From NCBI GenBank assembly GCA_964601915.1, contig CAZRPK010000002.1, forward strand, positions 2,000-65,999: DNA of 64,000 bases, written 5' to 3'. The notes under the pieces are model-generated. The model was not told where the DNA came from and did no database searches. It saw only the letters and a program-made list of their open reading frames with translations. Source of the stretch: an uncultured Kangiella sp. (lineage in GTDB: Bacteria > Pseudomonadota > Gammaproteobacteria > Enterobacterales > Kangiellaceae). Shown in pieces: positions 47,982 through 64,000 of this stretch (the first letter of the stretch is position 1; each line of letters starts with the position of its first letter). The translations under genes were made by a program, and so were the position numbers.

Positions 47982-49316
47982 ATGAACAGTAAATCTGCAT
48001 TCGAGTTACTCCATGAAGTCTTGGAAATCTGGACAGTTCCTCATATCGCTGAGATAACGGGGTTAAGTGTAGATAGAATCAAGAGGTTCAAAAGATTCAA
48101 GAATACCGACCAACAAGAGCTTGATCTATTATTTCCATTCAAAGCTTATCAGAGGCTTGAAGAGCTGTTACCTGAACCAGATACTAATGAAGATTTTACG
48201 TTTATAGATTTGTTTGCCGGTATCGGAGGGATCAGAAAAGGCTTCAGCGATTCAGGAGGACGGTGTCTTCTTACCTGTGAATGGGATGATTATGCAGTTA
48301 GAACATATAAAGCTAATTGGGGAAAGTGTGATGGACATAAGTTTGTAAGAGATATCAAAACGCTCACTCAACCAGAAGGCATTGCAGAGAGTAAAAGAAA
48401 AAAGCATATTCAATCATCCATTCCAGATCATGATGTTCTACTTGCTGGATTTCCTTGCCAACCGTTTTCATTAGCCGGTGTATCAAAGAAGAACTCATTG
48501 GGTCGAAGTCATGGTTTTGATTGTGAAGATCAAGGGCAGTTATTCTTTGATATATTAAGAATACTTGAAGCGAAGTCCCCTAAATTTATTGTTCTTGAAA
48601 ATGTTAAGAACTTAAAGAGCCATGATAAAGGAAATACCTTCAAAGTCATTAAATCCAAACTAACTGAAACTGGTTATTGGATAGCCAATCTTGAAGATGA
48701 CAAGCCCGATCCAAAGATCATTGATGGAGCTAAATTTCTACCACAGCATCGAGAGAGAATCGTCCTAATTGGATTTAGAAATGATATTGCAGACCAACTT
48801 AGAGCGGAAAAACACTTTAATATGAAAGATATTGTGCAGTACTTTCCTGAAGTAAAACCTACTCTCAAAGATATACTAGAACCAAATTCAAAAGTTGATA
48901 AAAAATACACTCTAAGTCAGAAACTCTGGGAATTCCTCTTCAATTATGCAGCTAAGCATAGGGCAAAAGGGAATGGTTTTGGTTATGGTATGGTTAAACG
49001 AAGTTCTGTTCAGGATACTCGCACACTCTCAGCTAGGTATCATAAAGATGGATCTGAAATACTAATACATCAAGAAGGGTTAAAAAGAGCAGAGGGCAGG
49101 CCAAGACGTTTAACTCCACAAGAATGTGCAAGACTTATGGGGTTCTACGCAAAAGGGGAAAAAAAGATGTTAATTCCTGTGTCAGATACTAGAGCATATA
49201 GACAGTTTGGAAACTCAGTTATTGTACCTGTTTTTAGTTCCGTAGCTAAAATGCTTAACCCCTATATAATGAAGTCCTTGATGTTGGAAACTAAGACAAA
49301 AAAACGTTCTGCATAG
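47982..49316 (+). CDS. DNA (cytosine-5)-methyltransferase, Dcm/M.EcoRII-like
   Basis: Motif I 'FIDLFAGIGGIRKGF', IV 'GFPCQPFS', VI 'ENVKNL', TRD 'TLSARYHKDGSEILI', IX-X 'RRLTPQECARLMGF...IPVSDTRAYRQFGNSVIVPVF'. The C-terminal half parallels E. coli Dcm (CCWGG). Confidence 0.93.
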   Translation: MNSKSAFELLHEVLEIWTVPHIAEITGLSVDRIKRFKRFKNTDQQELDLLFPFKAYQRLEELLPEPDTNEDFTFIDLFAGIGGIRKGFSDSGGRCLLTCEWDDYAVRTYKANWGKCDGHKFVRDIKTLTQPEGIAESKRKKHIQSSIPDHDVLLAGFPCQPFSLAGVSKKNSLGRSHGFDCEDQGQLFFDILRILEAKSPKFIVLENVKNLKSHDKGNTFKVIKSKLTETGYWIANLEDDKPDPKIIDGAKFLPQHRERIVLIGFRNDIADQLRAEKHFNMKDIVQYFPEVKPTLKDILEPNSKVDKKYTLSQKLWEFLFNYAAKHRAKGNGFGYGMVKRSSVQDTRTLSARYHKDGSEILIHQEGLKRAEGRPRRLTPQECARLMGFYAKGEKKMLIPVSDTRAYRQFGNSVIVPVFSSVAKMLNPYIMKSLMLETKTKKRSA

Positions 49317-49383
49317 AGTCGTCAATTTTCATGTGTTAAACGGTATACTGAATTAATCAAAGGAAGCAAAAGGTAATTGCTAT

Positions 49384-50802
49384 ATGGCATCGATGCAAGG
49401 AACATATGACTCTCAATCAGCTAAAGAGATAAGCCTTGGCGGTTTGAAGAGTATTCTACAAAAGCTAGATTGCACAGAGATATATGTTAAGAAACTATCG
49501 AGTAATGATAACAGTAAAAATCAAGTTTACTTTGGTGCACATTTAACAGATTTACCTTTCATACCAACCGGAGAGATGACAGCCTCTCAATCAAAATCGA
49601 AGAAAAAGTCCAATGGCAAAAGAGATGTAAAATACCAAGCAACTCTTGATTTATCTTGGGTAGATCCTGAAGGGAACATTCATAAGGCTCCTAATTCTAA
49701 ACTCATCTATTATCCCCAATATCCAGAAGTGAGGTTTTCAGGCTTTCTTAAAAGCTCTAAAGTTAATGTCAGCAATTGGATGGATCCCTATAAGCAAGGT
49801 CGTGCAGAAGGTCGGTGGTTGATTCTTGGGGTTTCAATAGATGGCGGTGTCTTTGCGTACATGGCTGAACCTGAAAGCAATTTAGCCAAAGAATTAACTC
49901 AAGTTGATTTAATTGATGTTGGTAGCGTGTTATCAAAACTAGACAGTCAGTTTATTCATAATCGATTGTCCAGTAGAGAAAACTTGATAGCAACGCTTAA
50001 TAATATTCACCAAATGGGATGGATACCTAGTCAAAAAATGAACAAGGACTTTAGTACAGAGCCATACAAGGCACTAAATGGTGGTGGTTATACTCTGGAG
50101 GCTTTGCTTGGTATTCCTCCTAACGGAATAGCTGAACCAGACTATCTCGGTTGGGAAGTTAAGCAGTTTGGAGTAACAAGATTTCCACGAATAGGCTCAA
50201 AGCCTACAACTCTAATGACTCCTGAACCAAATGGTGGAGTGTATAAAGATAAGGGAGTTATTACGTTTGTGAATGATTACGGTTATCCTGACAAAAACGG
50301 AAAGCCTGATCGATTTAACTTTGGTGGTAAACATAATGTAGGAAAGAGCCAAAAACTCACCAGGCTAACGATGGAACTGATTGGGTTTGATTCAGCAAAG
50401 TCTGTAATTACTGATGCTAGTGGTTGTATAGCATTACTTGATAAATCGGACAATATTACTGCAAGTTGGAGCTTTGCTAAATTAATGGATCATTGGAAGC
50501 GTAAACATTCTAAGGCTGTCTACATACCCTGTATCAAACGCAAGTTGAATTCTGGTTCTCTGGAATATCACTACGGGAAAGATATTGAGCTAGGAACAGG
50601 AACAAATTTCGAAATGATTTTATCCGCAATGCATTTGGGTTCAGTGTATTACGATCCGGGTATAAAAGTAGAGGAAGCTTCAAGTGAAAAACCAAAGATT
50701 AAACGTCGAAATCAATTTAGAGTAAATCATAAGCACCTGAATACGCTGTACAATAAATTCGAATATGTCGAGCTAAAGTCAACAGTCTGGACGAAGAGTT
50801 AA
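49384..50802 (+). CDS. Type II restriction endonuclease: EcoRII-N-like (B3-type) domain fused to an MvaI/BcnI-family catalytic domain
   Basis: N-terminus 'YVKKLSSNDNSKNQVYFG...LPFIP' and 'LIYYPQ...RFSGF' resemble the EcoRII effector domain. C-terminus 'NGGGYTLEALLGIPPNGIAEPDYLGWEVKQ' (D..E-x-K) and 'RRNQFRVNHKHLNTLY' parallel BcnI/MvaI. Confidence 0.7.
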   Translation: MASMQGTYDSQSAKEISLGGLKSILQKLDCTEIYVKKLSSNDNSKNQVYFGAHLTDLPFIPTGEMTASQSKSKKKSNGKRDVKYQATLDLSWVDPEGNIHKAPNSKLIYYPQYPEVRFSGFLKSSKVNVSNWMDPYKQGRAEGRWLILGVSIDGGVFAYMAEPESNLAKELTQVDLIDVGSVLSKLDSQFIHNRLSSRENLIATLNNIHQMGWIPSQKMNKDFSTEPYKALNGGGYTLEALLGIPPNGIAEPDYLGWEVKQFGVTRFPRIGSKPTTLMTPEPNGGVYKDKGVITFVNDYGYPDKNGKPDRFNFGGKHNVGKSQKLTRLTMELIGFDSAKSVITDASGCIALLDKSDNITASWSFAKLMDHWKRKHSKAVYIPCIKRKLNSGSLEYHYGKDIELGTGTNFEMILSAMHLGSVYYDPGIKVEEASSEKPKIKRRNQFRVNHKHLNTLYNKFEYVELKSTVWTKS

Positions 50803-51038: not shown

Positions 51039-52136
51039 ATGAAGAAAGATATAAAAGCCAACGACTTTGGAATAACAGTGGAACAATTTTTAAGCTGGCG
51101 AATACCTAGGTTCGGAAAGTCGAACCCAAGTAGATTCGACAACAATGTTTGGGAGTGGTTAGTTAAAACGAGAAATAGTGCCTATCGAGCAATGGAGGAG
51201 ATGCAAGGGCCGTCGCCAATTGAAGAAGGCCCTACTTGGTGTTTCGATAGAATGGGACAAACGACAACAAACTTACCCGACGGTAGAATCGTTTACATCG
51301 GTGGCGAACATGAAGATCACTATGATCCTGACTTCTACATATACAACGATGTAGTGGTGGTGAACCCTGACCAATCCGTTGAAATATATGGCTATCCAAA
51401 AGATACTTTTCCACCAACAGATTTCCATTCAGCGACATTAGTTGATGATAATATTTATATAATAGGTAGTCTTGGCTATCAGGATTCAAGAATAGTTAAC
51501 CAAACACAGGTATATATTCTTGATATTAATAGCTTCGTTATTTCCATTTTTGAAACGATTAGTGAATCACCCGGATGGATTCATGACCACGTAACAGAGC
51601 TTTCAAGCGACGAAAGCTTTCTGAGCATTACTTTAGGTAAGTTAGATGTTGGTGACGAATGTTCGTTAATCGAAAATATTGACGATTGGAAATTAAATAT
51701 AGAAGACAAAAGCTGGGAGCGGTTAACTAACAGGCAATGGACGCGTTGGGAAGTTAAAAGAAGAGACAAAAAATTCAACCAGCTATGGGAATTGCGGCAA
51801 GCACTTTGGCGCCTTGAAAACAATTGGGAAAACAGCTACCAAAAAGATATGAGGACTCTCACTAAGAGTTTAGGAAAAACTCCAGATCTACTTTTAGTGA
51901 ATGAGTTATATAAACCTAATCATACACACAAAGCATTGCCCGAAAATGAAGAGGAATACGGAATCTATCGAATATCTATCGACGATGTTGTTGTTCGCTA
52001 CGTTGAGGAGTTTCATTGCGTTCAAGTAACGGTAGAAGGCGAATTACCAGAAAACATTATCAATTTGTTAAAAGATGATTTGCTAACAAAAGTGTCGTTG
52101 CTAGAGAATACTAAGTACGAGCTTACAGTCATTTAA
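51039..52136 (+). CDS. Hypothetical protein with Kelch/beta-propeller-like N-terminal half
   Basis: 365-aa ORF starting 3 nt after the previous stop. 'DGRIVYIGGEHEDHYDPDFYIYNDVVVV' and 'ATLVDDNIYIIGSLGY' look like Kelch-type blades. Function is unknown. Confidence 0.5.
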   Translation: MKKDIKANDFGITVEQFLSWRIPRFGKSNPSRFDNNVWEWLVKTRNSAYRAMEEMQGPSPIEEGPTWCFDRMGQTTTNLPDGRIVYIGGEHEDHYDPDFYIYNDVVVVNPDQSVEIYGYPKDTFPPTDFHSATLVDDNIYIIGSLGYQDSRIVNQTQVYILDINSFVISIFETISESPGWIHDHVTELSSDESFLSITLGKLDVGDECSLIENIDDWKLNIEDKSWERLTNRQWTRWEVKRRDKKFNQLWELRQALWRLENNWENSYQKDMRTLTKSLGKTPDLLLVNELYKPNHTHKALPENEEEYGIYRISIDDVVVRYVEEFHCVQVTVEGELPENIINLLKDDLLTKVSLLENTKYELTVI

Positions 52137-55354: not shown

Positions 55355-55392
55355 GGGGTTTGAAATCCAATGGTACGAAAAGTGACTCTGAG
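55355..55392. repeat. Tn3-family terminal inverted repeat (left end)
   Basis: 'ggggtttgaaatccaatggtacgaaaagtgactctgag' matches the Tn3 IR (GGGGTCTGACGCTCAGTGGAACGAAAACTCACGTTAAG) at 26 of 38 positions. The matches include GGGGT, TGG, ACGAAAA and the terminal AG. It lies 25 bp after the recR stop. Confidence 0.7.
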
Positions 55393-55723
55393 GATAGTGT
55401 TCAACTATTTTGGGGGAAAGAATGGTTTGTCCATTGATAATAAATCGCTCTGGTTTAATGACAGTGTCAGCTTTTTTGGTTTGGAAACTAAATCCAAAAT
55501 TGTTATTTTTCAACATCCTTTTCTGGTCTTAAAAGCTGCTTGGGAAGAACTATTGGCACACAAAGTCCATGCCTCACGCCACGACGGGGTGTTGTGCATA
55601 AACACGATATTATTCGCTTAACGCTCTACAGGCATTGATACAACTGAGCCACAGAGCCTCCACGTTTTTCTGGTAACATTTTTATACGATTAGGGTAACC
55701 TCATTGCATTAAGCACCATTTTC

Positions 55724-56362
55724 TTAAGAACCCTGATCTTCTTGCTTTATTTTTTTTGAAACTGTAGCAATTTTACCTCTAGAGCAACCTAGAAGATGAA
55801 CAATCATTGAATAAGATTTTCCATCACGCAATAACATTCCAATTTTTTCTGATAGCTCCGTATTTTCCCTTCTTCCTTTGTATAATCCATTAGATAAAGC
55901 CTTAACAATACCTTCTTTTTGCCTACGCCTGCGATCTTGATAATCCTTTCTAGCAACTGCGGCTAATAGGTCCAGCATCAAATCGTTTATTGCAGATAAC
56001 ATTCTATTAGTAAATTCGTCACTATATTTCATTAGTTGGTGACTTGTTGGTAAATCGAGTGAAACAACTCTAAGCTCTTTTATTTTGATAATTGCTTTTA
56101 ACTTATTCCAATCTTTGTCATTAAGTCTAGAAATGCGATCAATCTGTTCAACTAGGATAATATCGTCCGGCTGGGCGATTTCCAATAATCTGAATAGTTC
56201 GGGACGATTTAGCGTTGCGCCATTTTCGTTCTCAACAAAAAATGTAGCAATTGTTAGATCAGATTGCTTGGCAAACTCAATTAATTGTTTTTTTGCTCGT
56301 AATGCATCTTGCTCCTTAGTCGAAGCTCGAAGATAAGCATATACGCGATAATTGGAATCCAA
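55724..56362 (-). CDS. tnpR: Serine recombinase (resolvase/invertase family)
   Basis: 'RVYAYLRASTKEQD' (catalytic Ser), 'ILVEQIDRISR', C-terminal HTH 'SYSMIVHLLGCSRGKIATV'. The start codon is TTG, and no in-frame ATG is available. Confidence 0.9.
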   Translation of the reverse strand: MDSNYRVYAYLRASTKEQDALRAKKQLIEFAKQSDLTIATFFVENENGATLNRPELFRLLEIAQPDDIILVEQIDRISRLNDKDWNKLKAIIKIKELRVVSLDLPTSHQLMKYSDEFTNRMLSAINDLMLDLLAAVARKDYQDRRRRQKEGIVKALSNGLYKGRRENTELSEKIGMLLRDGKSYSMIVHLLGCSRGKIATVSKKIKQEDQGS

Positions 56363-56374
56363 TGGAAATATACC

Positions 56375-56480
56375 AGTCTATTATAAGTGGTTCTATAATA
56401 TCGGTCTATTATAGGTGGTGTAAACATTTAAAATAGACCGCTCCAGACTGATTCTATATAGGTATACCCTAAATAGACTG
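56375..56480. promoter_or_regulatory. res-like recombination/regulatory region (resolvase binding repeats)
   Basis: 'gtctattataAgtgg' (56376-90) and 'gtctattataGgtgg' (56404-18) are direct repeats. The half-site occurs inverted as 'aatagacc' (56432-39) and 'aatagact' (56472-79). The region starts immediately upstream of tnpR. Confidence 0.55.
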
Positions 56481-56799
56481 ATTCATTCCCTTTGTTATCA
56501 ATAATCTCTTTGCGGTTGTTTATTATCTGATTACCAGCGGACTCTCACTGACCTGAAAGTAGCAAGCCAATTTAATTATTCCACTTAGAGTGGAATTACC
56601 TTAGATCATGAATGAGTGACATAATTAGCACAAAAGGCTTCTCAATGATTGAAAATGCACAAAACATTCATAGAATAAAGCATTACAAAAGAAGTAACAC
56701 TCTGTTGTGTGGCAAGAAGTCCTATGACTATTGAGCTCTTTTGATTGAATATTAATTGCCACTTAACTGAATTGCTTCTATAATTCGTGTATAGTTTAC

Positions 56800-56829
56800 T
56801 TACTATACATATTATCTTTACTATACATA
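56800..56829. promoter_or_regulatory. Tandem 12-bp direct repeats (candidate operator) abutting the cargo operon start
   Basis: 'ttactatacata' occurs at 56800-56811 and 56818-56829. The second copy ends 6 nt before the ATG at 56836. Confidence 0.4.
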
Positions 56830-56835
56830 GCGATT

Positions 56836-57666
56836 ATGAATATACAAAAACCATTGAAACCACTTAAATCTGCTCCTGTCACTTTTGTTTTATGCAAAAT
56901 TGCATGTGGGGACCTTCTTAATTTCGATTCAGAGCATTTGGGAAGTGTTCAAGATGCTTATCGACAAGAAGGTTATCCGCATTATGGGAAAGTAAGTTCA
57001 AGTGAAATTGAGGTTGTTCGACAACCTAGTGTTCTGGTTAGGCAGCATGAGCGATTGATTCATCACTTTATCAGTAATGATTTTAATGATGGTGTCGCTG
57101 TGTCAGGTGGTGATCTATTTGTTTACACAAATAATTATATTAACTTCGAAAGTTATATAAAGAAAGTACTCAATGCTCATAGGATTTTCTCGGCGACAGT
57201 AAATATGCAAACCATTGCAGGAATAGGGATTCGATACATTGATTTTATCAACCCCAAACAAGGGAAGTCTTTACCTGATTATTTAAATCCTGCTATCTTG
57301 AGCCCTGAATACAAAGGTGATTTAAGTAGTATTGAACCTTTAAATTCTTCAATGCAGCATACTTATCAAACAGAGTTAGGATCAGTCCTTGTATTAAGGT
57401 CGTTAGCTGGTCGTGGGCTTAAGATTGTGCCTGATGATTTAGTATCAATGATCAGCCCTATGCTTGTAAAAGCGGCTACTGAATCTACGTTAGATAACAC
57501 TTCTGGTATCTCCGCTCTTATTGATACAGACCACTTTGTTCAGTTTAAGGCTTTAGAAAATGTGAAGGAATTAAATTTGCGAGAATTGATCGATAGGTTG
57601 CATGAGTACACCTCAAACTTGTTTTTTGAAAATGTAACTTCAGCAGCTATCAAAGAATGGAGTTAA
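56836..57666 (+). CDS. TIGR04255-like uncharacterised family protein
   Basis: 276 aa. 'LKSAPVTFVLCKI' N-terminus, central 'GIGIRYIDFINP' and C-terminal 'LIDTDHF...' match the pattern I recall for the sporadically distributed TIGR04255 family. Confidence 0.55.
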   Translation: MNIQKPLKPLKSAPVTFVLCKIACGDLLNFDSEHLGSVQDAYRQEGYPHYGKVSSSEIEVVRQPSVLVRQHERLIHHFISNDFNDGVAVSGGDLFVYTNNYINFESYIKKVLNAHRIFSATVNMQTIAGIGIRYIDFINPKQGKSLPDYLNPAILSPEYKGDLSSIEPLNSSMQHTYQTELGSVLVLRSLAGRGLKIVPDDLVSMISPMLVKAATESTLDNTSGISALIDTDHFVQFKALENVKELNLRELIDRLHEYTSNLFFENVTSAAIKEWS

Positions 57667-57671
57667 TTAAT

Positions 57672-58265
57672 ATGGAAAATACAATACTACCAGAAACAAG
57701 GGAATTCAATACAACTAGAAACACTGCAGCGGCTTTAGTGTTTGTAGCTATGGTTGGAACCGGTGGTGCTCTACTTAGTGAAACATCAAGAATTGATACT
57801 CCGACTAATAAACAGTACCAAATGGTTAAAGTTAGCTCTGCCAGTTTTCATGTTGAGAAAGGTGATAAGTTAGGTGGCCCGAATCTACAATTCCAAAAGG
57901 GTGTTATTGCTTTGATGGAAACCTACGGGTTTAATATTAAACAGTATGCTGAATATATGAAGGTTACTAGAGCAACAATCTATAGTTGGCTCAATATCAA
58001 GAAACCTATTAGAAGAGTTAAGAGTGTCAATCGTATTAGATTGGATGATTTATCAAAAGCATTAATAATCGTTAAGGAGGATAGGGCAAGTACATTTGGT
58101 GTGTGGTTACTAAATCCTTTAGATGATTTGACCAGTAAAGTAAAAAATTTGTTATCTAGCGATGGAATAGAGCTGGATGCCTTTTATGAACTCGCACCGA
58201 AAATAAACTCAGCGTTGCGCTCTGAGACTAGCAGAATTGAACTTGATGATTTGTTAGGGTTGTAA
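57672..58265 (+). CDS. HTH protein with Xre/MbcA/ParS-type (DUF2384-like) C-terminal domain; antitoxin-like
   Basis: HTH 'NIKQYAEYMKVTRATIYSWLN', then 'FGVWLLNPLDDLTSKVKNLLSSDG' (compare the DUF2384 pattern W-x-x-x-P-x-x-x-L). GGAG lies 9 nt before the ATG at 57672. An alternative ATG at 57657 overlaps the upstream gene by 10 nt. Confidence 0.5.
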   Translation: MENTILPETREFNTTRNTAAALVFVAMVGTGGALLSETSRIDTPTNKQYQMVKVSSASFHVEKGDKLGGPNLQFQKGVIALMETYGFNIKQYAEYMKVTRATIYSWLNIKKPIRRVKSVNRIRLDDLSKALIIVKEDRASTFGVWLLNPLDDLTSKVKNLLSSDGIELDAFYELAPKINSALRSETSRIELDDLLGL

Positions 58266-58270
58266 TTTTG

Positions 58271-59101
58271 ATGTTTGACCGTAACAAAGCCATTAAGTTT
58301 GGTTGGAATCAATGTGTAATATTTAATCATACAAGCTCGCCAAAAGTATTTAGTTGCATTCCTGAAAAACACAAGGGTGAAGATAATTATTATATAGTTT
58401 TGTCTCATCCCTGTTCACTACTGAATTACTCATTGGTGAATGAGCCTACTTTTGAATACGTCATAGCTAAACCTATAGAAAAAATTGATGGTAATTGCAC
58501 TTTTGGCAAAAATCCCAGAAAGTTGCACATCTATATAGCTTCGATGGGTAAAGCATTTGAACTGGAACAGTGCAATCGAAATTATGTCATTAGAGATTTG
58601 ATTTCTGATGAAGCCCCAATTAGTGCGATATTTGAACCTGAGATTGCCCGCTCTATATGCCTATGGGTCGCGAATAGGTATTTAGCTTCATCATTTCCGG
58701 ATGAGTTCGAGAATAGAATTAGCAAGGCTAAAAAGAATCTGAGGAAAAAATATAGTGGTGCAGTTGGCGAAAAATGTAGAAGTGCTTACCTTATTTTAAA
58801 TGAACCGTTGCTCGACCTTGAATCAGATGAAGACTACAAACTACGCTTGTTTTTCACTCTAAGCCCTGATGATTTCCAAACATACGATCAAGAGAGTGAT
58901 ACTGCGCAGATGCCTTTTAAAGAGTTCTTATTAAGTGTAAAAAAAATACTAAATGAACTAAAAGGTATTTCTATTGAACAAATCGCATATCTTAATGAAA
59001 ACCAAATAACCTTAAACCAAATCCAGAGCCCAAAGTTTAAAAAATGGAATTATGATTTTTTATCCGTGGTATCAAATACCGAAACGGATGATGCATTCTA
59101 G
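58271..59101 (+). CDS. Hypothetical protein (third gene of the Tn3 cargo cassette)
   Basis: 277-aa ORF starting 5 nt after the previous stop. No motif recognised; 'YYIVLSHPCSLL' is a possible Cys/His site. Confidence 0.5.
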   Translation: MFDRNKAIKFGWNQCVIFNHTSSPKVFSCIPEKHKGEDNYYIVLSHPCSLLNYSLVNEPTFEYVIAKPIEKIDGNCTFGKNPRKLHIYIASMGKAFELEQCNRNYVIRDLISDEAPISAIFEPEIARSICLWVANRYLASSFPDEFENRISKAKKNLRKKYSGAVGEKCRSAYLILNEPLLDLESDEDYKLRLFFTLSPDDFQTYDQESDTAQMPFKEFLLSVKKILNELKGISIEQIAYLNENQITLNQIQSPKFKKWNYDFLSVVSNTETDDAF

Positions 59102-59220: not shown

Positions 59221-59879
59221 ACACCCATAATAGACTAGGACTGTTTGAAAGCTCGTTACTGTCCTAATATGTCAATATTTTAATCGCTCAGGTAACATTG
59301 TTCGACTTACTCAGCTATTCGAGCAACAAATATGGCAAATAATTCACCCGGTATTGATACCGTTGATAACTCTGAACACCATGATTTATATGACCTACCG
59401 CGTTTTAATGACAATGACCGAGCTTACTTCTTTAATCTTAGTGATCTAGAATTATCAATACTCAAGCAATTTCGAATTGTTCAGAACAAAGTCCATTTTA
59501 TTTTGTTGTTGGGTTATTTTAAGGCAAAGCCGGTAACTTTAACCTTCACTTGGGGAATGGTAAAAAAAGACCTTACACATATTTACGCTCGATATTTCCC
59601 GAAAGCTCGTTTGGTTCGCAAGAACCTGAACAAAGATGCCAAATCCAACATCTACCAAAAGGTTTTTTTTCTAACTGGTTTTCAACGATTTTTAGAACAG
59701 CATCAAAAGAAACTCTTTAAACAGGCTGATTTAGCGGTTGCTAACAGAGCAAGCAATAAGGCAGTGTTTGATGAGTGCGTGACTTATTTGAATCAGCATT
59801 GGATTGCGTTACCCGCTCTTTCTCGGGTACAAAACGTTGTAAGCTAGGCACTAAATAAAGAAGAAGATCGACTTACTGC
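59221..59879 (+). pseudogene. Truncated second copy of the res-proximal region plus first 171 codons of a Tn3-family tnpA
   Basis: Collinear with 61073-61731, with scattered substitutions and one 1-bp indel. A CAG-to-TAG change gives a stop at 59845-47. Homology ends at 59879. Confidence 0.85.
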
Positions 59880-59990
59880 GTATTACCGCGAACGTGAACA
59901 CCTAATGGCGGCCATCGTGAACACCTGACCTTCGGAGGAGCCTTAGAAAGGAGAAAAGCACGTGAGTGGTATAATGAAAACAAAGGCAAA

Positions 59991-60458
59991 TTGGTCATAT
60001 CGGACAAGTCAACACTTGGATGCAGATTAGTCAAAAAGCGGACAACAGCTGTGGAGCGGATAATAGGTATGGAAAAATATTATAACAGTCGACTCTGCAC
60101 TTTTACGGCAGAAATAGAGAATAATTCAAAACATGTGCTGAGCGGCCTAATTTTAAAAGTAAAGGTGTACAACAAATCAAAAAAACAGCTCGTTGTACAA
60201 AAATATGCCAGCCTGCCAATATCAATTTATCCAACGGTTAAGAAAAAAGAGTCTATTGAATTTAACGCTAGTGCCATCGGCGAAGTAATTTCACAGCTTG
60301 GAAATAATTACTATTGGAATTATGAATTAATAGCTTACCTTCCCAGTGAATTTTACCATGCACCAGAGTCTTCAGAGTCTAAAGAACATGTTGACTTTTT
60401 TGATGACGGCGATGACAGCGCTGACTGGGTAGGCGACTACAGTTGGTTAGACCAATGA
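59991..60458 (+). CDS. Hypothetical protein (start uncertain, acidic C-terminus)
   Basis: ORF between the two tnpA copies. The ORF-track start is TTG; an internal ATG gives 'MEKYYNSRL...'. No recognisable motif. Confidence 0.35.
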   Translation: MVISDKSTLGCRLVKKRTTAVERIIGMEKYYNSRLCTFTAEIENNSKHVLSGLILKVKVYNKSKKQLVVQKYASLPISIYPTVKKKESIEFNASAIGEVISQLGNNYYWNYELIAYLPSEFYHAPESSESKEHVDFFDDGDDSADWVGDYSWLDQ

Positions 60459-60585
60459 CCTTCCTCTAAACGTAAAAACACCTTTTATTTCCAATAATGA
60501 AGTGTGAACAACTCTATAAGTTGACTCCTTCATAATAAAATACGTAAACAGGTTAATTTTTTAAATAGGAATTACCTATTTTTTT

Positions 60586-60894
60586 CTAAAGCTTTTTTTC
60601 ATGATCTTGCGCTGAACCTTTTCCATAGTTATCCCACCCTTCTTGCAAAATTGGGTAAACTCTATTATCCAGTTCACAGTAATAGGTGTCTGTAAATTTG
60701 TCTTTACGAGCAGTTTCAATTTCCATAACATATCGACAGTAAGAATTTGCCTTGCTCATATTTTTATGCTCAATAACTACTGTATACGTAATAAAAGCAA
60801 TAAGACTGATAACACAGGTTACTACTACTAAGTCCACTCCAACAGCGAACCAGTTTTGATCTTTGATGTGTTGCGTGAAACGACGAAGAAGCAT
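60586..60894 (-). CDS. Small single-pass membrane protein, hypothetical
   Basis: 'RRFTQHIKDQNWFAVGVDLVVVTCVISLIAFI' is an N-terminal anchor pattern seen in small uncharacterised proteins of other bacteria. 102 aa. Confidence 0.45.
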   Translation of the reverse strand: MLLRRFTQHIKDQNWFAVGVDLVVVTCVISLIAFITYTVVIEHKNMSKANSYCRYVMEIETARKDKFTDTYYCELDNRVYPILQEGWDNYGKGSAQDHEKKL

Positions 60895-61182
60895 GAGTTT
60901 CCTTAATTATTATTAATATTTATCCATTAGAGATAATGTACTGCTATTAAAGCTATTTATCAATACTATGAAACATATCAACGTCCGTTAATCGAACTAA
61001 GCGGTTGTGAAATTGCTTTGTTTTCGCGTTTACATGCAAAATCACCAAGAAATTGACTGGTTCACGATAAGCACACCCATAATAGACTAGGACTGTTTGA
61101 AAGCTCGTTACAGTCCTATATGTCAATATTTTAATCGCTCAGGTAACATTGTTCGACTTACTCAGCTATTCGAGCAACAAAT

Positions 61183-64000
61183 ATGGCAAATAATTCACCC
61201 GGTATTGATACCGTTGATAACTCTGAACACCATGATTTATATGACCTACCGCGTTTTAATGACAATGACCGAGCTTACTTCTTTAATCTTAGTGATCTAG
61301 AATTATCAACACTCAAGCAATTTCGAATTGTGCAGAACAAAGTCCATTTTATTTTGTTGCTAGGTTATTTTAAGGCAAAGCCGGTAACTTTAACCTTCAC
61401 GTTGGGAATTGTAAAAAAAGATCTCACATATATTTATGCTCGATATTTTCCGAAAGCTCGTTTAGTTCGCAAAAACCTGAACAAAGATGCCAAATCCAAC
61501 ATCTACCAAAAGGTTTTTTCTTTAACTGGTTTTCAACGATTTTCGGAACAGCATCAAAATAAACTCTTTAAACAGGCTGATTTAGCGGTTGCCAACCGGG
61601 CAAGCAATAAGACAGTGTTTGATGAGTGCGTGACTTACTTGAATCAGAATTGGATTGCGTTGCCCGCTCTTTCTCGGGTCCAAAACGTTGTCAGCCAGGC
61701 ACTAAATAAAGAAGAATACCGACTTACTGCCATATTTGACAGAAAACTTAAGGGCAAGCTAAAGGATTACATTACAGCATTGTTAGCTCCTCATCAGACA
61801 ACAGATGAATTTCGAACTCTTAGAAGCCAAGCGAAGGATTTTACTTTCGGAGAGATAAGTCGAGAATTACAAGATAAACAAAAACTGGAGCCTATCTTTT
61901 TACAAGCGAAAATGATTTTACAACAAGCGCATATATCCGAAGGAAATATTTGTTATTACAGTGATATGTTTCAAAACTACCGAACCTCGCAGTTGAAACA
62001 ATTTTCACCGGCTAAGGCCTGTATTTATGTGGTCTCATTTCTATGTCAACTCTATGGCCACATAAATGATAATTTGACTAACGGTTTTTATCGAGGGATC
62101 AGAAAGTACAGACAGAACGCGAGTCAATATAGTGATTCGCAAATTACCAGTGAGGCTAGTCGGCTCGGCAAACAGGTTAATAAAGTATCGGATGTCCTAC
62201 ATATGCTGGCTAGCAGCGCTGATGATGAAACCATGCTGGCAAAAGCATTACTCAAGAAGATCTACAAGATTTTACCTCAATCAGATTTAGTATCAGTGGC
62301 TGATTTTATGGCCAAAGTAGAGCTGGATAAGAAACAATTTGTTTGGCAATACTATCGCCAAAATAAATCGACTATCAGGCGTAACTTAAGGCGGCTATTT
62401 ATGACCCTAGAGTTTGAAATCGATAAAGCTCATTTTGAACTCGCTAATCAAGTTGTTTTGGCAAAACAGGAAATTCGCCAATATGGAGAAATTAAAACGA
62501 TAAATGAAGCACTGATCCGTCCGTCGGATTTACATTATATTCAGAACGATGATCAAGAAAATCGAACTGTTGATGCCTTTCTTTTCGAATGTTATTTGTA
62601 CCGAAAAATTCTTGTAGCACTAGATAACGATGTTTGTTACATCCATCATAGTCATCAATACCGGCCGCTTGGTGACTATCTCGTTAATAAAGTCGACCAA
62701 AAGCGATTGAGTAAATCCATGTCACTACCTATGTTGAAAGTGACAATTTCAGAATTAAGTACTGGTTTAAAAGAGTTACTAGAAGACCAAATAAAAAATA
62801 CCAGTAAGCGGATCAATCAGGGAGAAAATGATTATGTGATTTATTCTGATCAGACCAACACCATAAAATGGTCTTTGTCGGTCAAAAATCCAGTCGCTAC
62901 GGTGAATAATAGGGTGTTTGAACAATTTGATCAGGTAGGGATCATTGAACTGATGCGGGTGGTTAATCAGGAAACGAATTTCTTCGATGAATTTACTCAT
63001 TTTCAGTCAAAATATCAGCGCACCCAACCCAGCCTTAATGACATTTTGGCATGTATATTGGGCAATGGCACTAACTTCGGTTTATATAAAATAGCCAATA
63101 TTTCAGACCGGTCATTCAACGACTTACGAGCTACACAGGCCAACTATTTGCGCCTGGAGACTTTAAAAGCTGCAAACGACGCAATCTCAAATAAAACAGC
63201 TTCTTTACCAATATTCGAGTACTACCAAATAGATGAGCGCGGTCAGCACGGTAGTATCGATGGGCAAAAGTTTGAATGTCGTTTTAGCTCTTTAATGGCT
63301 AGGTATTCACCTAAATACTTCGGCCAAGGCAAAGGCGTATCAGCGGTGACATTAGTGCTTAACCACATACCGGCAGATAGCAAAATTATTAGTGCAGATG
63401 ATCACGAAAGCCATCACATTTTTGATTTACTCTATAACAACACTTCTGATGTTAAGCCTGATATTTTGTCAACCGATACTCACGGGACAAATAGATATAA
63501 TTTTGCCATACTCCATTTCTTTGGTTATCAATTTGCACCGCGATACAAAACGTTTAAAAATCATTTTGAGAAAATGTTTCAGGTAGAAAATACTGAAGAT
63601 GCCGAGCAGTTGATCTCGTTGAGGACTCCGATAGATTGGGAGTTGATCACAAAAGAATGGGATAATATCTGCCGATTAATGATTTCACTGGGACAGCACA
63701 AAACCAGTCAGAGTGTACTTATTAAAAAAATTTGTCGGTATAAATCGAACACAGCAACTCTAAAGGCATTAGCTGAATATGACAGAGCAATAAAAGCACA
63801 ATACATACTGGATTATATTGATAGTGAAACACTTCGTAGGCATGTTCAACGTGCTCTCAATCGAGGCGAAGCATACCACCAGTTAAGGCGTGTAATAGCA
63901 GAAACAAACGGTAAGAAATTCAGAGGCAGTCATCATGCAGAGTTAACGCTATGGAATGAGTGTGCAAGGCTGATTGCAAATTGTGTTATTCATTATAACG
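61183..64000 (+). CDS. tnpA: Tn3-family DDE transposase, 3'-partial (runs off the window)
   Basis: Hand translation from the ATG at 61183 is open for 939 codons to the window end. It contains the N-terminal DUF4158-like 'LYDLPRFNDNDRAYFFNLSDLE...FILLLGYFKAKP' and the DDE-region blocks 'GSIDGQKFE', 'HESHHIFDLL', 'LSTDTHGTN' and 'ALNRGEAYHQLRR'. The ORF track omits it because no stop lies in the window. Confidence 0.9.
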   Translation, partial: MANNSPGIDTVDNSEHHDLYDLPRFNDNDRAYFFNLSDLELSTLKQFRIVQNKVHFILLLGYFKAKPVTLTFTLGIVKKDLTYIYARYFPKARLVRKNLNKDAKSNIYQKVFSLTGFQRFSEQHQNKLFKQADLAVANRASNKTVFDECVTYLNQNWIALPALSRVQNVVSQALNKEEYRLTAIFDRKLKGKLKDYITALLAPHQTTDEFRTLRSQAKDFTFGEISRELQDKQKLEPIFLQAKMILQQAHISEGNICYYSDMFQNYRTSQLKQFSPAKACIYVVSFLCQLYGHINDNLTNGFYRGIRKYRQNASQYSDSQITSEASRLGKQVNKVSDVLHMLASSADDETMLAKALLKKIYKILPQSDLVSVADFMAKVELDKKQFVWQYYRQNKSTIRRNLRRLFMTLEFEIDKAHFELANQVVLAKQEIRQYGEIKTINEALIRPSDLHYIQNDDQENRTVDAFLFECYLYRKILVALDNDVCYIHHSHQYRPLGDYLVNKVDQKRLSKSMSLPMLKVTISELSTGLKELLEDQIKNTSKRINQGENDYVIYSDQTNTIKWSLSVKNPVATVNNRVFEQFDQVGIIELMRVVNQETNFFDEFTHFQSKYQRTQPSLNDILACILGNGTNFGLYKIANISDRSFNDLRATQANYLRLETLKAANDAISNKTASLPIFEYYQIDERGQHGSIDGQKFECRFSSLMARYSPKYFGQGKGVSAVTLVLNHIPADSKIISADDHESHHIFDLLYNNTSDVKPDILSTDTHGTNRYNFAILHFFGYQFAPRYKTFKNHFEKMFQVENTEDAEQLISLRTPIDWELITKEWDNICRLMISLGQHKTSQSVLIKKICRYKSNTATLKALAEYDRAIKAQYILDYIDSETLRRHVQRALNRGEAYHQLRRVIAETNGKKFRGSHHAELTLWNECARLIANCVIHYN

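What the first reader, a model, noticed from the sequence alone, without database searches (positions are those of the whole stretch)
56836..59101. Three-gene cargo cassette next to res: TIGR04255-like, HTH/DUF2384 antitoxin-like, unknown 277-aa protein
The three ORFs are tightly linked: a 10-nt overlap or 5-nt gap at the first junction, and a 5-nt gap at the second. They sit between res and tnpA, the position where Tn3-family transposons have been reported to carry toxin-antitoxin modules. The middle protein has an HTH plus a C-terminal segment resembling the toxin-binding domain of Xre/MbcA/ParS antitoxins. Neither neighbour looks like the usual RES/ParT partner. One is a TIGR04255-like protein, a sporadically distributed family of unknown function. 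The other has no motif I recognise. This could be an undescribed three-component TA, abortive-infection or transposon-stabilisation system.
Basis: partly seen in the sequence, partly recalled or inferred. Interest (0 to 1): 0.7.

Follow-up and report, generated by a model that had tools for sequence, protein, structure and literature searches.

The report
Conserved three-gene toxin-like cassette in transposon
The three genes form a real, widespread and apparently undescribed operon carried by many kinds of mobile DNA: a TIGR04255 protein, a DNA-binding regulator and a protein with a MazF/CcdB toxin-like fold, most likely a self-regulated three-part toxin-antitoxin or phage-defence module whose activity is untested.

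Summary
Three co-oriented, tightly spaced ORFs (56836-57666, 57672-58265, 58271-59101) lie between tnpR/res and tnpA of a Tn3-family transposon.

- **ORF1** is a TIGR04255 protein (102 bits against a cutoff of 30).
- **ORF2** is an Xre-type HTH protein. The proposed DUF2384 domain has only sub-threshold support.
- **ORF3** belongs to a large unnamed family: 1650 clusters at 50% identity, no Pfam hit. Its confident model (pLDDT 92.7) has an N-terminal PemK/MazF/CcdB-like fold in two independent structure libraries.

The trio recurs in the same order in every intact locus examined: 49 of 52 metagenome loci (the other three hold only ORF3 fragments), plus plasmids, Tn7-like transposons, integrase islands and viral contigs. 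It spans Proteobacteria, Bacteroidota, Deinococcota and Cyanobacteria, often beside defence or TA genes.

A TGTAWAsY operator-like motif precedes ORF1 and was confirmed on an independent set (34-fold enrichment). In two Ralstonia replicons a Zeta-toxin kinase replaces ORF3.

My best reading is an autoregulated tripartite TA or abortive-infection module with a swappable toxin. ORF1's role is unknown and nothing has been tested experimentally. I found no description of it in the literature or in PADLOC.

The parts
55586..55623 (.). Left terminal inverted repeat (38 bp, GGGGTGTTGTGCATAAAC...) of the Tn3-family transposon that carries the cassette
   Evidence: It aligns with its inverted partner beyond the window end (L004 16018-16055, about window 64288-64325); 40 of 53 alignment columns (IR plus flanks) are invariant.
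55724..56362 (-). tnpR, serine resolvase (212 aa)
   Evidence: Pfam Resolvase, E 1.9e-18.
56376..56478 (.). res-like region with four GTCTATTW half-sites (two on +, two on -)
   Evidence: Six of the 8 window occurrences lie here or just upstream of the two tnpA copies.
56756..56784 (+). Sigma-70 promoter-like site, TTGCCA-17-TATAAT (11 of 12 matches), about 50 nt upstream of ORF1
   Evidence: This is a consensus match only; the total number of such sites in the region is no higher than in shuffles.
56788..56827 (+). Putative operator: three TGTATAGT sites at 56788-56795 (+), 56802-56809 (-) and 56820-56827 (-)
   Evidence: The motif TGTAWA[ACG]Y recurs upstream of ORF1 homologues in 11 of 12 first loci. 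In an independent set it occurs in 39 of 48 loci, at 5.65 per kb against 0.17 per kb background.
56836..57666 (+). ORF1, TIGR04255 family protein (276 aa). Conserved R133, D136, D201, D230-x-D232. Two-lobed alpha+beta model.
   Evidence: NCBIfam TIGR04255, 102.5 bits against cutoff 30. AF2 pLDDT 80.3. Foldseek gives only weak, topological hits to AdoMetDC and TBP.
57672..58265 (+). ORF2, Xre-type HTH protein (197 aa; alternative start 57657). Has an N-terminal hydrophobic GTGG motif and a C-terminal helical region. Probable autorepressor and antitoxin.
   Evidence: It is the least conserved of the three proteins in 1096 of 1176 locus pairs.
58271..59101 (+). ORF3 (276 aa; alternative TTG start 58268). 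New family with motifs GWxQ, S[HQ]xC, GKNPRxLH, WxxxRY..FPDxF and W.[FY]D..S. Has an N-terminal PemK/MazF/CcdB-like fold plus a C-terminal alpha/beta domain. Probable toxin or effector.
   Evidence: AF2 pLDDT 92.7. Foldseek PDB and BFVD.
59221..59235 (-). Extra res-like half-site (GTCTATTATGGGTGT) downstream of the cassette, duplicated at 61073-61087
59332..59847 (+). Truncated tnpA 5' fragment (171 codons, then a stop)
   Evidence: DUF4158, E 1.5e-24. It duplicates 61183 onward.
61183..64000 (+). Intact Tn3-family tnpA (1001 aa on the parent contig), running off the window

Best explanation
The cassette is one copy of a widespread, self-contained, autoregulated three-gene module that behaves like a tripartite toxin-antitoxin or abortive-infection system.

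**Proposed working**
1. One promoter upstream of ORF1 transcribes all three genes, which are translationally coupled.
2. ORF2, the Xre-type HTH protein, binds the repeated TGTATAGT sites between the -10 box and the ORF1 start. This represses the operon (inferred).
3. ORF3 is the growth-inhibiting effector. Its N-terminal PemK/MazF/CcdB-like domain is the likely toxic part, acting as an RNase or a gyrase poison. Which of the two is undetermined.
4. ORF2 is the fastest-evolving protein and sits immediately upstream of the toxin. It probably also neutralises ORF3 (inferred).
5. ORF1 (TIGR04255) is an obligatory third partner. Candidate roles are sensor, stabiliser or chaperone of ORF2, or an enzyme using its conserved Asp/Arg cluster. 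Its role is unknown.

In the transposon, the module would penalise loss of the element, protect the host against phage, or both.

**What is shown:** gene linkage, family spread, the conserved operator motif, the fold similarity and the toxin swap.

**What is inferred:** toxicity, who neutralises whom, and the trigger.
For: **Linkage**
- The trio occurs in the same order in all 4 ORF3 sequence clusters found by word search and in further ORF1 relatives.
- It occurs in distant ORF3 relatives at about 25% identity.
- It occurs in six annotated plasmids examined from five phyla or classes.
- It occurs in 3 of 4 viral contigs; the fourth is cut by the contig end.
- In metagenome loci with enough upstream DNA, 48 of 52 have the trio by an automatic filter. 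One more has it on inspection, and 3 hold only ORF3 fragments.
- Pairwise identities of the three proteins correlate strongly across 49 loci (r 0.86-0.90), so they are inherited as a unit.

**Toxin-like effector**
- The ORF3 model has pLDDT 92.7.
- Top PDB hits are CcdB and many MazF structures: E 6e-3, probability up to 1.0, TM 0.55-0.65 normalised to target length over about 130 columns.
- The top hit in the independent BFVD library is a PemK/MazF toxin (E 1.1e-3, TM 0.66), with several other PemK-like proteins.
- In two diverged Ralstonia replicons (ORF1 78% identical), the third position holds a Zeta_toxin protein (PF06414, E 9e-10, above cutoff) with 4-nt gene overlaps.

**Regulation**
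- The HTH is detected across the ORF2 family.
- A promoter-like site scores 11 of 12.
- The motif TGTAWA[ACG]Y was defined on 12 loci (27 per kb against 0.39 per kb). On 48 independent loci it reached 5.65 per kb against 0.17 per kb, present in 39 of 48, typically as two copies 12 nt apart.

**Antitoxin-like behaviour of ORF2**
- It is the least conserved of the three proteins in 93% of locus pairs.
- It shows sub-threshold similarity to Xre/ParS antitoxins.

**Context**
- The cassette lies next to res, as reported for Tn3-family TA pairs.
- Elsewhere the trio lies in Tn7-like transposons, integrase islands and a plasmid region with phage tail genes.
- Neighbours include BREX, NACHT, HipA, RES, VapBC, PIN, AbiE, TIR, Qat, DISARM and RM genes.
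Against: - There is no experimental evidence of toxicity, neutralisation or defence.
- The MazF/CcdB similarity is at the fold level only. No PemK or CcdB Pfam hit appears in any of 84 family members, even at E<=1.
- hhalign against a small MazF/CcdB set gave no signal.
- Foldseek E-values are marginal (1e-3 to 1e-2).
- The invariant residues of ORF3 (C49, E63, R84, W133, R137, Y190) were not mapped onto MazF or CcdB functional sites.
- ORF1 and ORF2 stay homologous when the toxin changes from the ORF3 family to Zeta. This is unexpected if either one is a tightly toxin-specific binding antitoxin.
- ORF1 has no functional homologue.
- The neighbour census has no formal background control.
Confidence: 0.55

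Rival explanations
1. The module is a transcriptionally gated defence effector, not a classical TA. ORF1 and ORF2 form a sensor-repressor pair, analogous to CapP/CapH, ImmA/ImmR or BrxR-type controllers. They keep a toxic effector (ORF3 or Zeta) silent. A signal sensed by ORF1 inactivates ORF2, possibly by acting on its conserved GTGG segment, and the operon is derepressed.
For: - ORF1 and ORF2 are retained while the third gene is swapped.
- A conserved operator precedes the operon.
- ORF1 has a conserved acidic cluster, D201 and D230-x-D232 with R133 and D136, which is compatible with an enzyme or ligand site.
- ORF2 carries a conserved GTGG motif at a fixed distance (60-71 aa) from the HTH in 30 of 53 homologues, against 0 of 37 in ORF1 or ORF3 controls. 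The motif is absent from the Zeta variant.
- Regulator pairs placed upstream of diverse immune operons are an established theme (papers listed).
Against: - ORF1 has no detectable protease, kinase or other sensor-domain similarity.
- All three genes share one promoter, so derepression raises the repressor and the effector together.
- Only one alternative effector type was found among roughly 70 loci, so the pair is not a promiscuous regulator of many operons.
Confidence: 0.22
2. The trio is not a toxin or defence system. It is a mobile-element housekeeping or regulatory module, for example controlling transposition, resolution or maintenance, or performing a small-molecule transformation. The MazF/CcdB-like barrel would then be a non-toxic binding domain.
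For: - The fold match is marginal and lacks sequence support.
- ORF1 resembles, only topologically, AdoMetDC, TBP and SAM-lyase-type alpha+beta folds.
- Some neighbourhoods contain ordinary metabolic genes.
Against: - The trio is carried by unrelated mobile elements with different transposition chemistries: Tn3, Tn7-like, tyrosine-integrase islands, plasmids and phage-like contigs. This argues against a role tied to one machinery.
- Replacement of ORF3 by a bona fide Zeta toxin family member is hard to reconcile with a benign function.
- Defence and TA genes are frequent neighbours.
Confidence: 0.13
3. It is a toxin-antitoxin-chaperone-like system. ORF1 acts as a dedicated chaperone that stabilises an aggregation-prone segment of the ORF2 antitoxin, the hydrophobic GTGG region, as SecB-like chaperones do in TAC systems.
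For: - ORF2 has a hydrophobic N-terminal segment (Kyte-Doolittle 19-residue mean 1.81 in the window protein).
- That segment carries a conserved GTGG motif.
- The architecture is tripartite with an obligatory third partner.
Against: - ORF1 shows no SecB-like hit.
- Only 3 of 37 broader-family homologues pass the hydrophobicity threshold.
- The motif is absent from some clades (L019, L020, L021-L024).
- ORF1's conserved charged cluster looks more like an active or ligand site than a chaperone groove.
Confidence: 0.1

Closest known systems
Toxin-antitoxin passenger modules of Tn3-family transposons (Lima-Mendez et al. 2020, mBio, PMC7157771)
   Same: The position is the same: embedded in the transposition module, next to res, between divergent tnpR and tnpA, as in TnXc5 and Tn5044. 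A role in stable invasion or maintenance was proposed for those pairs.
   Different: The reported modules are two-gene pairs of the ParE, PIN_3, Gp49, PIN and HEPN types. This is a three-gene unit with a TIGR04255 protein, an Xre-HTH protein and a MazF/CcdB-like two-domain protein. The same trio also occurs outside Tn3 elements.
MazEF / Kid-Kis / CcdAB type II TA systems (PemK/MazF/CcdB toxin superfamily)
   Same: The ORF3 N-terminal domain (about 130 aa) superposes on CcdB and MazF structures. The gene directly upstream is small, fast-evolving and DNA-binding, as antitoxins are.
   Different: ORF3 is 276 aa with an extra C-terminal alpha/beta domain. It gives no PemK or CcdB HMM signal. The putative antitoxin has an Xre HTH rather than an AbrB or RHH fold. 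There is an obligatory third gene.
Xre/ParS/MbcA-RES TA systems (COG5642-COG5654)
   Same: The HTH type is the same: PF20432 Xre-like-HTH gives weak hits in some homologues. NF049845 gives sub-threshold alignments that extend past the HTH.
   Different: There is no PF09722 (DUF2384) hit. There is no RES or ParT toxin. Scores are far below cutoff (12 bits against 90).
Tripartite TA systems: omega-epsilon-zeta, and toxin-antitoxin-chaperone (TAC)
   Same: Three co-transcribed genes include a regulator and a toxin. A Ralstonia variant of this module actually carries a Zeta-family toxin.
   Different: There is no epsilon, omega (RHH) or SecB-like component. The gene order differs. TIGR04255 has no counterpart in those systems.
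Promiscuous antitoxin or regulator modules (the PanA/DUF4065 antitoxin; CapH-CapP, CapK-CapS and BrxR regulators of defence operons)
   Same: A conserved upstream module is paired with different toxic effectors, with an HTH repressor and operator.
   Different: The components are unrelated in sequence. Only two effector types have been seen so far. The three genes share one promoter.

Membership tests
TIGR04255 family (ORF1) | Score above the curated NCBIfam cutoff over the full-length model | tested here: met
   102.5 bits against a cutoff of 30, model positions 2-251 of 252. The partners in other loci also pass.
Type II toxin-antitoxin system (generic) | Adjacent, co-oriented, translationally coupled genes forming a conserved unit | tested here: met
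   Gaps are 5 nt and 5 nt. The trio is conserved in 49 of 52 metagenome loci plus the plasmid and viral loci.
Type II toxin-antitoxin system (generic) | The toxin inhibits growth and the antitoxin protein neutralises it by binding | not testable with these tools
   This needs expression and rescue experiments or complex structures.
Type II toxin-antitoxin system (generic) | Autoregulation by a DNA-binding antitoxin at an operator in the promoter | tested here: inconclusive
   An HTH is present. A conserved TGTAWAsY motif lies upstream of ORF1 and was validated on independent loci. Binding itself is not shown.
PemK/MazF/CcdB toxin superfamily (ORF3 N-terminal domain) | Match to Pfam PemK_toxin or CcdB, or profile-level sequence similarity | tested here: not met
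   No hit in the window protein or in 84 homologues at E<=1.
PemK/MazF/CcdB toxin superfamily (ORF3 N-terminal domain) | SH3-like barrel fold with a C-terminal helix that superposes on solved toxins | tested here: met
   Foldseek PDB: CcdB 4elz/3tcj at E 6e-3, probability 1.0, TM 0.62-0.65, and more than 20 MazF chains. BFVD: a PemK/MazF toxin at E 1.1e-3, TM 0.66. Significance is moderate.
PemK/MazF/CcdB toxin superfamily (ORF3 N-terminal domain) | Conserved catalytic or gyrase-binding residues | not tested
Xre/ParS/MbcA antitoxins (ORF2) | C-terminal DUF2384 (PF09722) toxin-binding domain | tested here: not met
   No PF09722 hit in 12 homologues at E<=1. NF049845 gives 12.3 bits against a cutoff of 90; 5 of 16 homologues are sub-threshold, best E 0.0025. 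The PDB Xre/MbcA/ParS entry 8qnl scores E 0.3 over the HTH only.
Xre/ParS/MbcA antitoxins (ORF2) | Partner toxin of the RES or ParT family | tested here: not met
   ORF1 and ORF3 have no RES or ParT hits.
Tn3-family transposon TA passenger (Lima-Mendez 2020) | Located within the transposition module, adjacent to res | tested here: met
   The order is tnpR, res half-sites, cassette, tnpA.
Tn3-family transposon TA passenger (Lima-Mendez 2020) | Belongs to one of the reported toxin types (ParE, PIN_3, Gp49, PIN, HEPN) | tested here: not met
   No such Pfam hits.
Known anti-phage defence systems (PADLOC-DB v2.0.0) | HMM match of the component proteins | tested here: not met
   ORF1 and ORF3 have no hits at E<=1. 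ORF2 has only weak HTH-level hits, to mad1 and PDC-M64B.
Toxin-antitoxin-chaperone (TAC) | SecB-like chaperone as the third component | tested here: not met
   The ORF1 model has no SecB hit among the top Foldseek matches and no Pfam hit.

The most novel reading that the evidence does not exclude
TIGR04255 plus the GTGG-HTH protein is a portable two-protein control unit that arms interchangeable toxins. So far these are a two-domain MazF/CcdB-like protein in more than 1000 sequence clusters, and a Zeta kinase in Ralstonia.

On this reading the trio defines a new, phylum-spanning family of tripartite abortive-infection or addiction systems spread by Tn3, Tn7-like, integrase and phage elements. 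TIGR04255 would be a new kind of sensor or enzymatic antitoxin. It would act through its conserved Asp/Arg site on the GTGG segment of the repressor-antitoxin.
Probability: 0.3. Interest if true: 0.8.

Novelty: new variant of a known kind. Interest (0 to 1): 0.62.

Why it matters
- TIGR04255 is a named but functionless family. This analysis ties it to a fixed genomic partnership and gives it a testable role.
- The ORF3 family has about 1650 clusters at 50% identity and no Pfam model. It would be a new branch, or a structural analogue, of the MazF/CcdB toxins with an added domain.
- A three-gene module that rides on at least four kinds of mobile element across distant phyla, sits beside defence genes and has a conserved operator is a strong candidate for a new defence or addiction system.
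- It also extends the observation that Tn3-family transposons keep TA-like modules next to res.
- The conserved operator and the toxin swap give clear experimental handles.

Tried and rejected
- **Sequence searches for ORF3 function.** Pfam, NCBIfam and PADLOC gave nothing. PDB phmmer and profile searches gave nothing meaningful. PHROGs gave only an unknown-function family, phrog_34320.
- **Profile-profile test of MazF/CcdB homology.** There was no signal. A lenient Pfam scan of 84 homologues also gave no PemK or CcdB hit. The toxin link therefore rests on fold only.
- **ORF1 function.** The PDB sequence and profile searches were empty. Foldseek gave only low-TM topological matches to AdoMetDC/prozyme, TBP, SAM lyase and McrD. 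I do not treat these as homology.
- **ORF2 as a membrane-anchored regulator.** The window protein's N-terminal segment passes a transmembrane-like hydropathy threshold. Only 3 of 37 broader homologues do, the same rate as controls. I rejected this as a general feature and kept the GTGG motif as an unexplained conserved element.
- **DUF2384 in ORF2.** Not supported.
- **Wide locus searches.** The search for related loci with broad alignments failed for lack of conserved stretches. The single genome-contig scan found only two close relatives.
- **Literature.** Searches for TIGR04255, for RefSeq accessions of trio members, and for multidomain MazF/CcdB defence toxins found nothing.
- **Possible NTase-like C-terminal domain of ORF3.** Weak Foldseek hits to MNT, AadA and pol-beta NTases appear. 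By my reading of the family consensus I see no G[SG]...DxD signature, so I record this as tentative only.
Full report
**1. What is in the window**

The three ORFs are present as described.
- ORF1 is 56836-57666 (276 aa).
- ORF2 is 57657-58265, most likely starting at ATG 57672. That start has a GGAG 9 nt upstream and lies 5 nt after the ORF1 stop. Public gene calls give 197 aa.
- ORF3 is 58268-59101, with an ATG at 58271, 5 nt after the ORF2 stop.

The cassette lies inside a Tn3-family transposon.
- The true left inverted repeat is at 55586-55623. Its partner lies just past the window end on the parent metagenome contig.
- tnpR (55724-56362, minus strand; Resolvase E 1.9e-18) is followed by four GTCTATTW half-sites at 56376-56478.
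- Two further copies of the half-site sit upstream of each tnpA copy. Together these six are six of only eight occurrences in 64 kb.
- The tnpA immediately downstream of the cassette (59332-59847) is a 171-codon truncated duplicate. After a 1.2-kb insert, the intact tnpA starts at 61183.

The layout tnpR <- res -> cassette -> tnpA matches what Lima-Mendez et al. 2020 report for TA pairs in TnXc5 and Tn5044 (PMC7157771, section 14).

**2. The three proteins**

*ORF1.* It is a clear TIGR04255 member (102.5 bits against a cutoff of 30) and has no Pfam hit. A model built from seven homologues has pLDDT 80.3 and shows a two-lobed alpha+beta protein. Foldseek finds only low-TM, topological matches to AdoMetDC/prozyme, TBP, a phage SAM lyase and McrD. 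PDB sequence and profile searches are empty. The conserved residues form a charged set: R133, D136, D201 and D230-x-D232, among others. Its function remains unknown.

*ORF2.* It has an Xre-type HTH.
- The window protein alone gives weak hits (HTH_17 E 0.0035). Across homologues the HTH is consistent: HTH_23 in 11 of 12, and PF20432 Xre-like-HTH in 2 of 12 and in the Ralstonia protein.
There is no PF09722 hit. NF049845 (Xre_ParS_antitoxin) gives 12 bits against a cutoff of 90, with sub-threshold hits in 5 of 16 homologues.
- The N-terminal part is variable but carries a hydrophobic stretch ending in G-T-G-G. The motif sits 60-71 residues before the HTH in 30 of 53 homologues, against 0 of 37 in ORF1 or ORF3 controls.
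- This stretch is not a general transmembrane helix.

*ORF3.* It has no Pfam, NCBIfam or PADLOC hit. A word-indexed search found only four clusters. An exhaustive HMMER search with their alignment found 1650 representative clusters at E<=1e-3, and 1080 at E<=1e-10. Nearly all are 260-285 aa.
- Family motifs are GWRQG, S[HQ]DCD, DGN...GKNPRxLH, W.A.RY.R.AFPD.FN.R and RWDFDYLS. Invariant residues are W13, C49, E63, R84, W133, R137 and Y190.
- With an 84-sequence alignment the AlphaFold model is confident (pLDDT 92.7, pTM 0.85).
- Against the PDB, the best matches are CcdB (4elz, 3tcj; E about 6e-3, probability 1.0, TM 0.62-0.65 normalised to the target) and more than twenty MazF chains, aligned over about 130 columns.
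- Against the independent BFVD library, the best match is a phage PemK/MazF toxin (E 1.1e-3, TM 0.66), followed by several PemK-like proteins.
- Weaker hits to minimal nucleotidyltransferases (MNT, AadA, pol-beta NTase) probably reflect the C-terminal alpha/beta domain. By my reading of the family consensus I see no NTase signature.
- There is no sequence-level support for MazF/CcdB homology. The claim is fold resemblance, not membership.

**3. The trio is a conserved unit**

Every context I could retrieve shows the same order and sizes: about 270 aa TIGR04255, about 160-245 aa HTH protein, about 275 aa ORF3 family.
- Alteromonas stellipolaris, next to NACHT and HipA genes.
- A contig where the trio lies between BrxR/A/B and Tn7-like TnsABCD genes.
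- Further Tn7-like elements.
- Tyrosine-integrase islands in a gammaproteobacterial contig, in Sediminicola and in a Meiothermus plasmid.
- Plasmids of Pseudomonas putida, Gloeocapsopsis, Klebsiella (beside a tape-measure gene), Mesorhizobium (beside VapBC) and Acinetobacter baumannii.
- Thalassotalea and Oleiphilus genomes.
- Three IMG/VR viral contigs.

My own HMMs confirm homology of all three proteins in these loci.

I then scanned metagenomes with a different subclade of the ORF3 family and obtained 80 loci.
- Of 52 loci with at least 1750 nt upstream, 48 have ORF1 and ORF2 homologues directly upstream on the same strand.
- One more has them on inspection. Its ORF3 reading frame overlapped my filter.
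- The other three contain only ORF3 fragments.

Across 49 loci the pairwise identities of the three proteins are strongly correlated (r 0.86-0.90). ORF2 is the least conserved in 1096 of 1176 pairs. Flanking genes are not conserved, so the trio is self-contained. Many flanking genes are mobile-element or defence genes: integrases, IS21, resolvase, AbiEi/Eii, TIR effectors, PglZ, BrxC/D, DrmD, QatC/D, SoFic, RT and methyltransferases. I did not compute a background rate for this census.

**4. A conserved operator**

Upstream of ORF1 there is a promoter-like TTGCCA-17-TATAAT at 56756-56784 (11 of 12). Three TGTATAGT sites follow at 56788-56827.

The same sequence, as an inverted or direct pair about 12-14 nt apart, lies 20-50 nt upstream of ORF1 homologues in Gammaproteobacteria, Deinococcota and Cyanobacteria.

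The motif TGTAWA[ACG]Y was derived from those 12 loci, so I tested it on the 48 independent metagenome loci. It is present near the ORF1 start in 39 of them, at 5.65 per kb against 0.17 per kb in the rest of the same loci. The usual form is TGTAAAGT repeated at 12-nt spacing.

This is good evidence for a family-wide cis element. The conserved HTH protein is the obvious candidate to bind it, but binding is inferred.

**5. Effector swap**

In the Ralstonia pseudosolanacearum megaplasmid and a R. solanacearum plasmid (ORF1 78% identical), ORF1 and ORF2 homologues are not followed by an ORF3-family gene. Instead there is a 231-236 aa P-loop protein that passes the Pfam Zeta_toxin threshold (E 9e-10, 38.7 bits against a cutoff of 22.3). 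The genes overlap by 4 nt.

A bona fide TA toxin family in the third position is the strongest indirect evidence that this slot encodes a toxic effector. It also suggests that ORF1 and ORF2 are the control part.

**6. Most likely mechanism and rivals**

*Best reading (about 0.55).* This is an autoregulated tripartite TA-like or abortive-infection module.
- ORF2 represses the operon at the TGTATAGT sites and probably neutralises ORF3.
- ORF3 is the toxin, acting through its MazF/CcdB-like domain.
- ORF1 is an obligatory third partner of unknown activity.
- On the transposon, the module would favour retention of the element, provide phage defence, or both.

*Main rival (about 0.22).* ORF1 and ORF2 form a sensor-repressor pair that gates expression of a toxic effector, like CapP/CapH. 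This fits the effector swap and the GTGG motif. It lacks any recognisable sensor or protease domain in ORF1.

*Other rivals.* A TAC-like chaperone role for ORF1 (about 0.10) and a non-toxic housekeeping role (about 0.13) are less well supported.

None of these can be settled without experiments or complex modelling.

**7. Comparison with known systems and novelty**

- The cassette occupies the same place as Tn3-family TA pairs but belongs to none of the reported toxin types.
- It resembles MazEF and CcdAB in toxin fold and gene order, but fails their sequence definitions and has extra parts.
- It shares an HTH type with Xre/ParS/MbcA antitoxins, but lacks DUF2384 and a RES partner.
- It is tripartite like omega-epsilon-zeta and TAC, but shares no accessory component with them.
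- No PADLOC (2023) model matches ORF1 or ORF3.
- No paper in the searchable library mentions TIGR04255 or the RefSeq accessions of trio members.

I rate it a new variant of a known kind: a TA or abortive-infection module with new components.

**Verdict**

Interest is 0.62: this is a widespread, well-delimited, experimentally tractable candidate system, but the functional claims are still inferential.

Noticed in passing
window 55355-55393; L004 16170-16317 (beyond the window end): A second Tn3-type terminal repeat (GGGGTTTGAAATCC...ACGAAAAG) lies 190 bp outside the left IR of the cassette-bearing transposon and has no partner in the window or in L004. Just past the right IR, another DUF4158-like tnpA N-terminus begins. 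The transposon appears nested in, or abutting, a second Tn3-family element directly downstream of recR.
   Followed up: partly
window 59221-59880 and 61073-61730: A res-like half-site plus the first ~180 codons of tnpA are duplicated. The first 346 nt are 98% identical and the protein alignment shows about a dozen substitutions. The first copy ends in a premature stop. This suggests recombination between two related transposons at or near res, which could be how the cassette was acquired.
   Followed up: partly
window 59880-61072: A 1.2-kb insert lies between the tnpA fragment and the intact tnpA. It holds two orphan ORFs: 59991-60458 (+, 155 aa) and 60586-60894 (-, 102 aa, hydrophobic N-terminus). 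Neither has a significant family hit.
   Followed up: partly
window 57738-57749 (ORF2 residues ~28-31 counted from ATG 57657 as: V-G-T-G-G): A G-T-G-G motif follows a hydrophobic run 60-71 residues upstream of the HTH. It is conserved in 30 of 53 ORF2 homologues across distant clades and absent from the Zeta-toxin variant. It could be an interaction or processing site; this is unexplained.
   Followed up: partly
L024 2398-3892 (Ralstonia pseudosolanacearum megaplasmid): The Zeta-toxin variant of the module sits next to a ThiF/E1-like protein with DUF6791 and a multiubiquitin-domain protein. This is a bacterial ubiquitin-like conjugation cluster of the kind linked to defence.
   Followed up: no
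window ~48271-50802: A DNA methylase and an MvaI/BcnI-type restriction endonuclease lie a few kb upstream of dnaX, followed by a Kelch-repeat protein at 51039-52136. They are outside the transposon.
   Followed up: no
L007 4035-4235 (Sediminicola-type loci L007-L011): In the Bacteroidota version, an extra 66-aa HTH_3 gene precedes the trio and the TGTAWAsY motif is missing upstream of ORF1. Regulation may differ in that clade.
   Followed up: no
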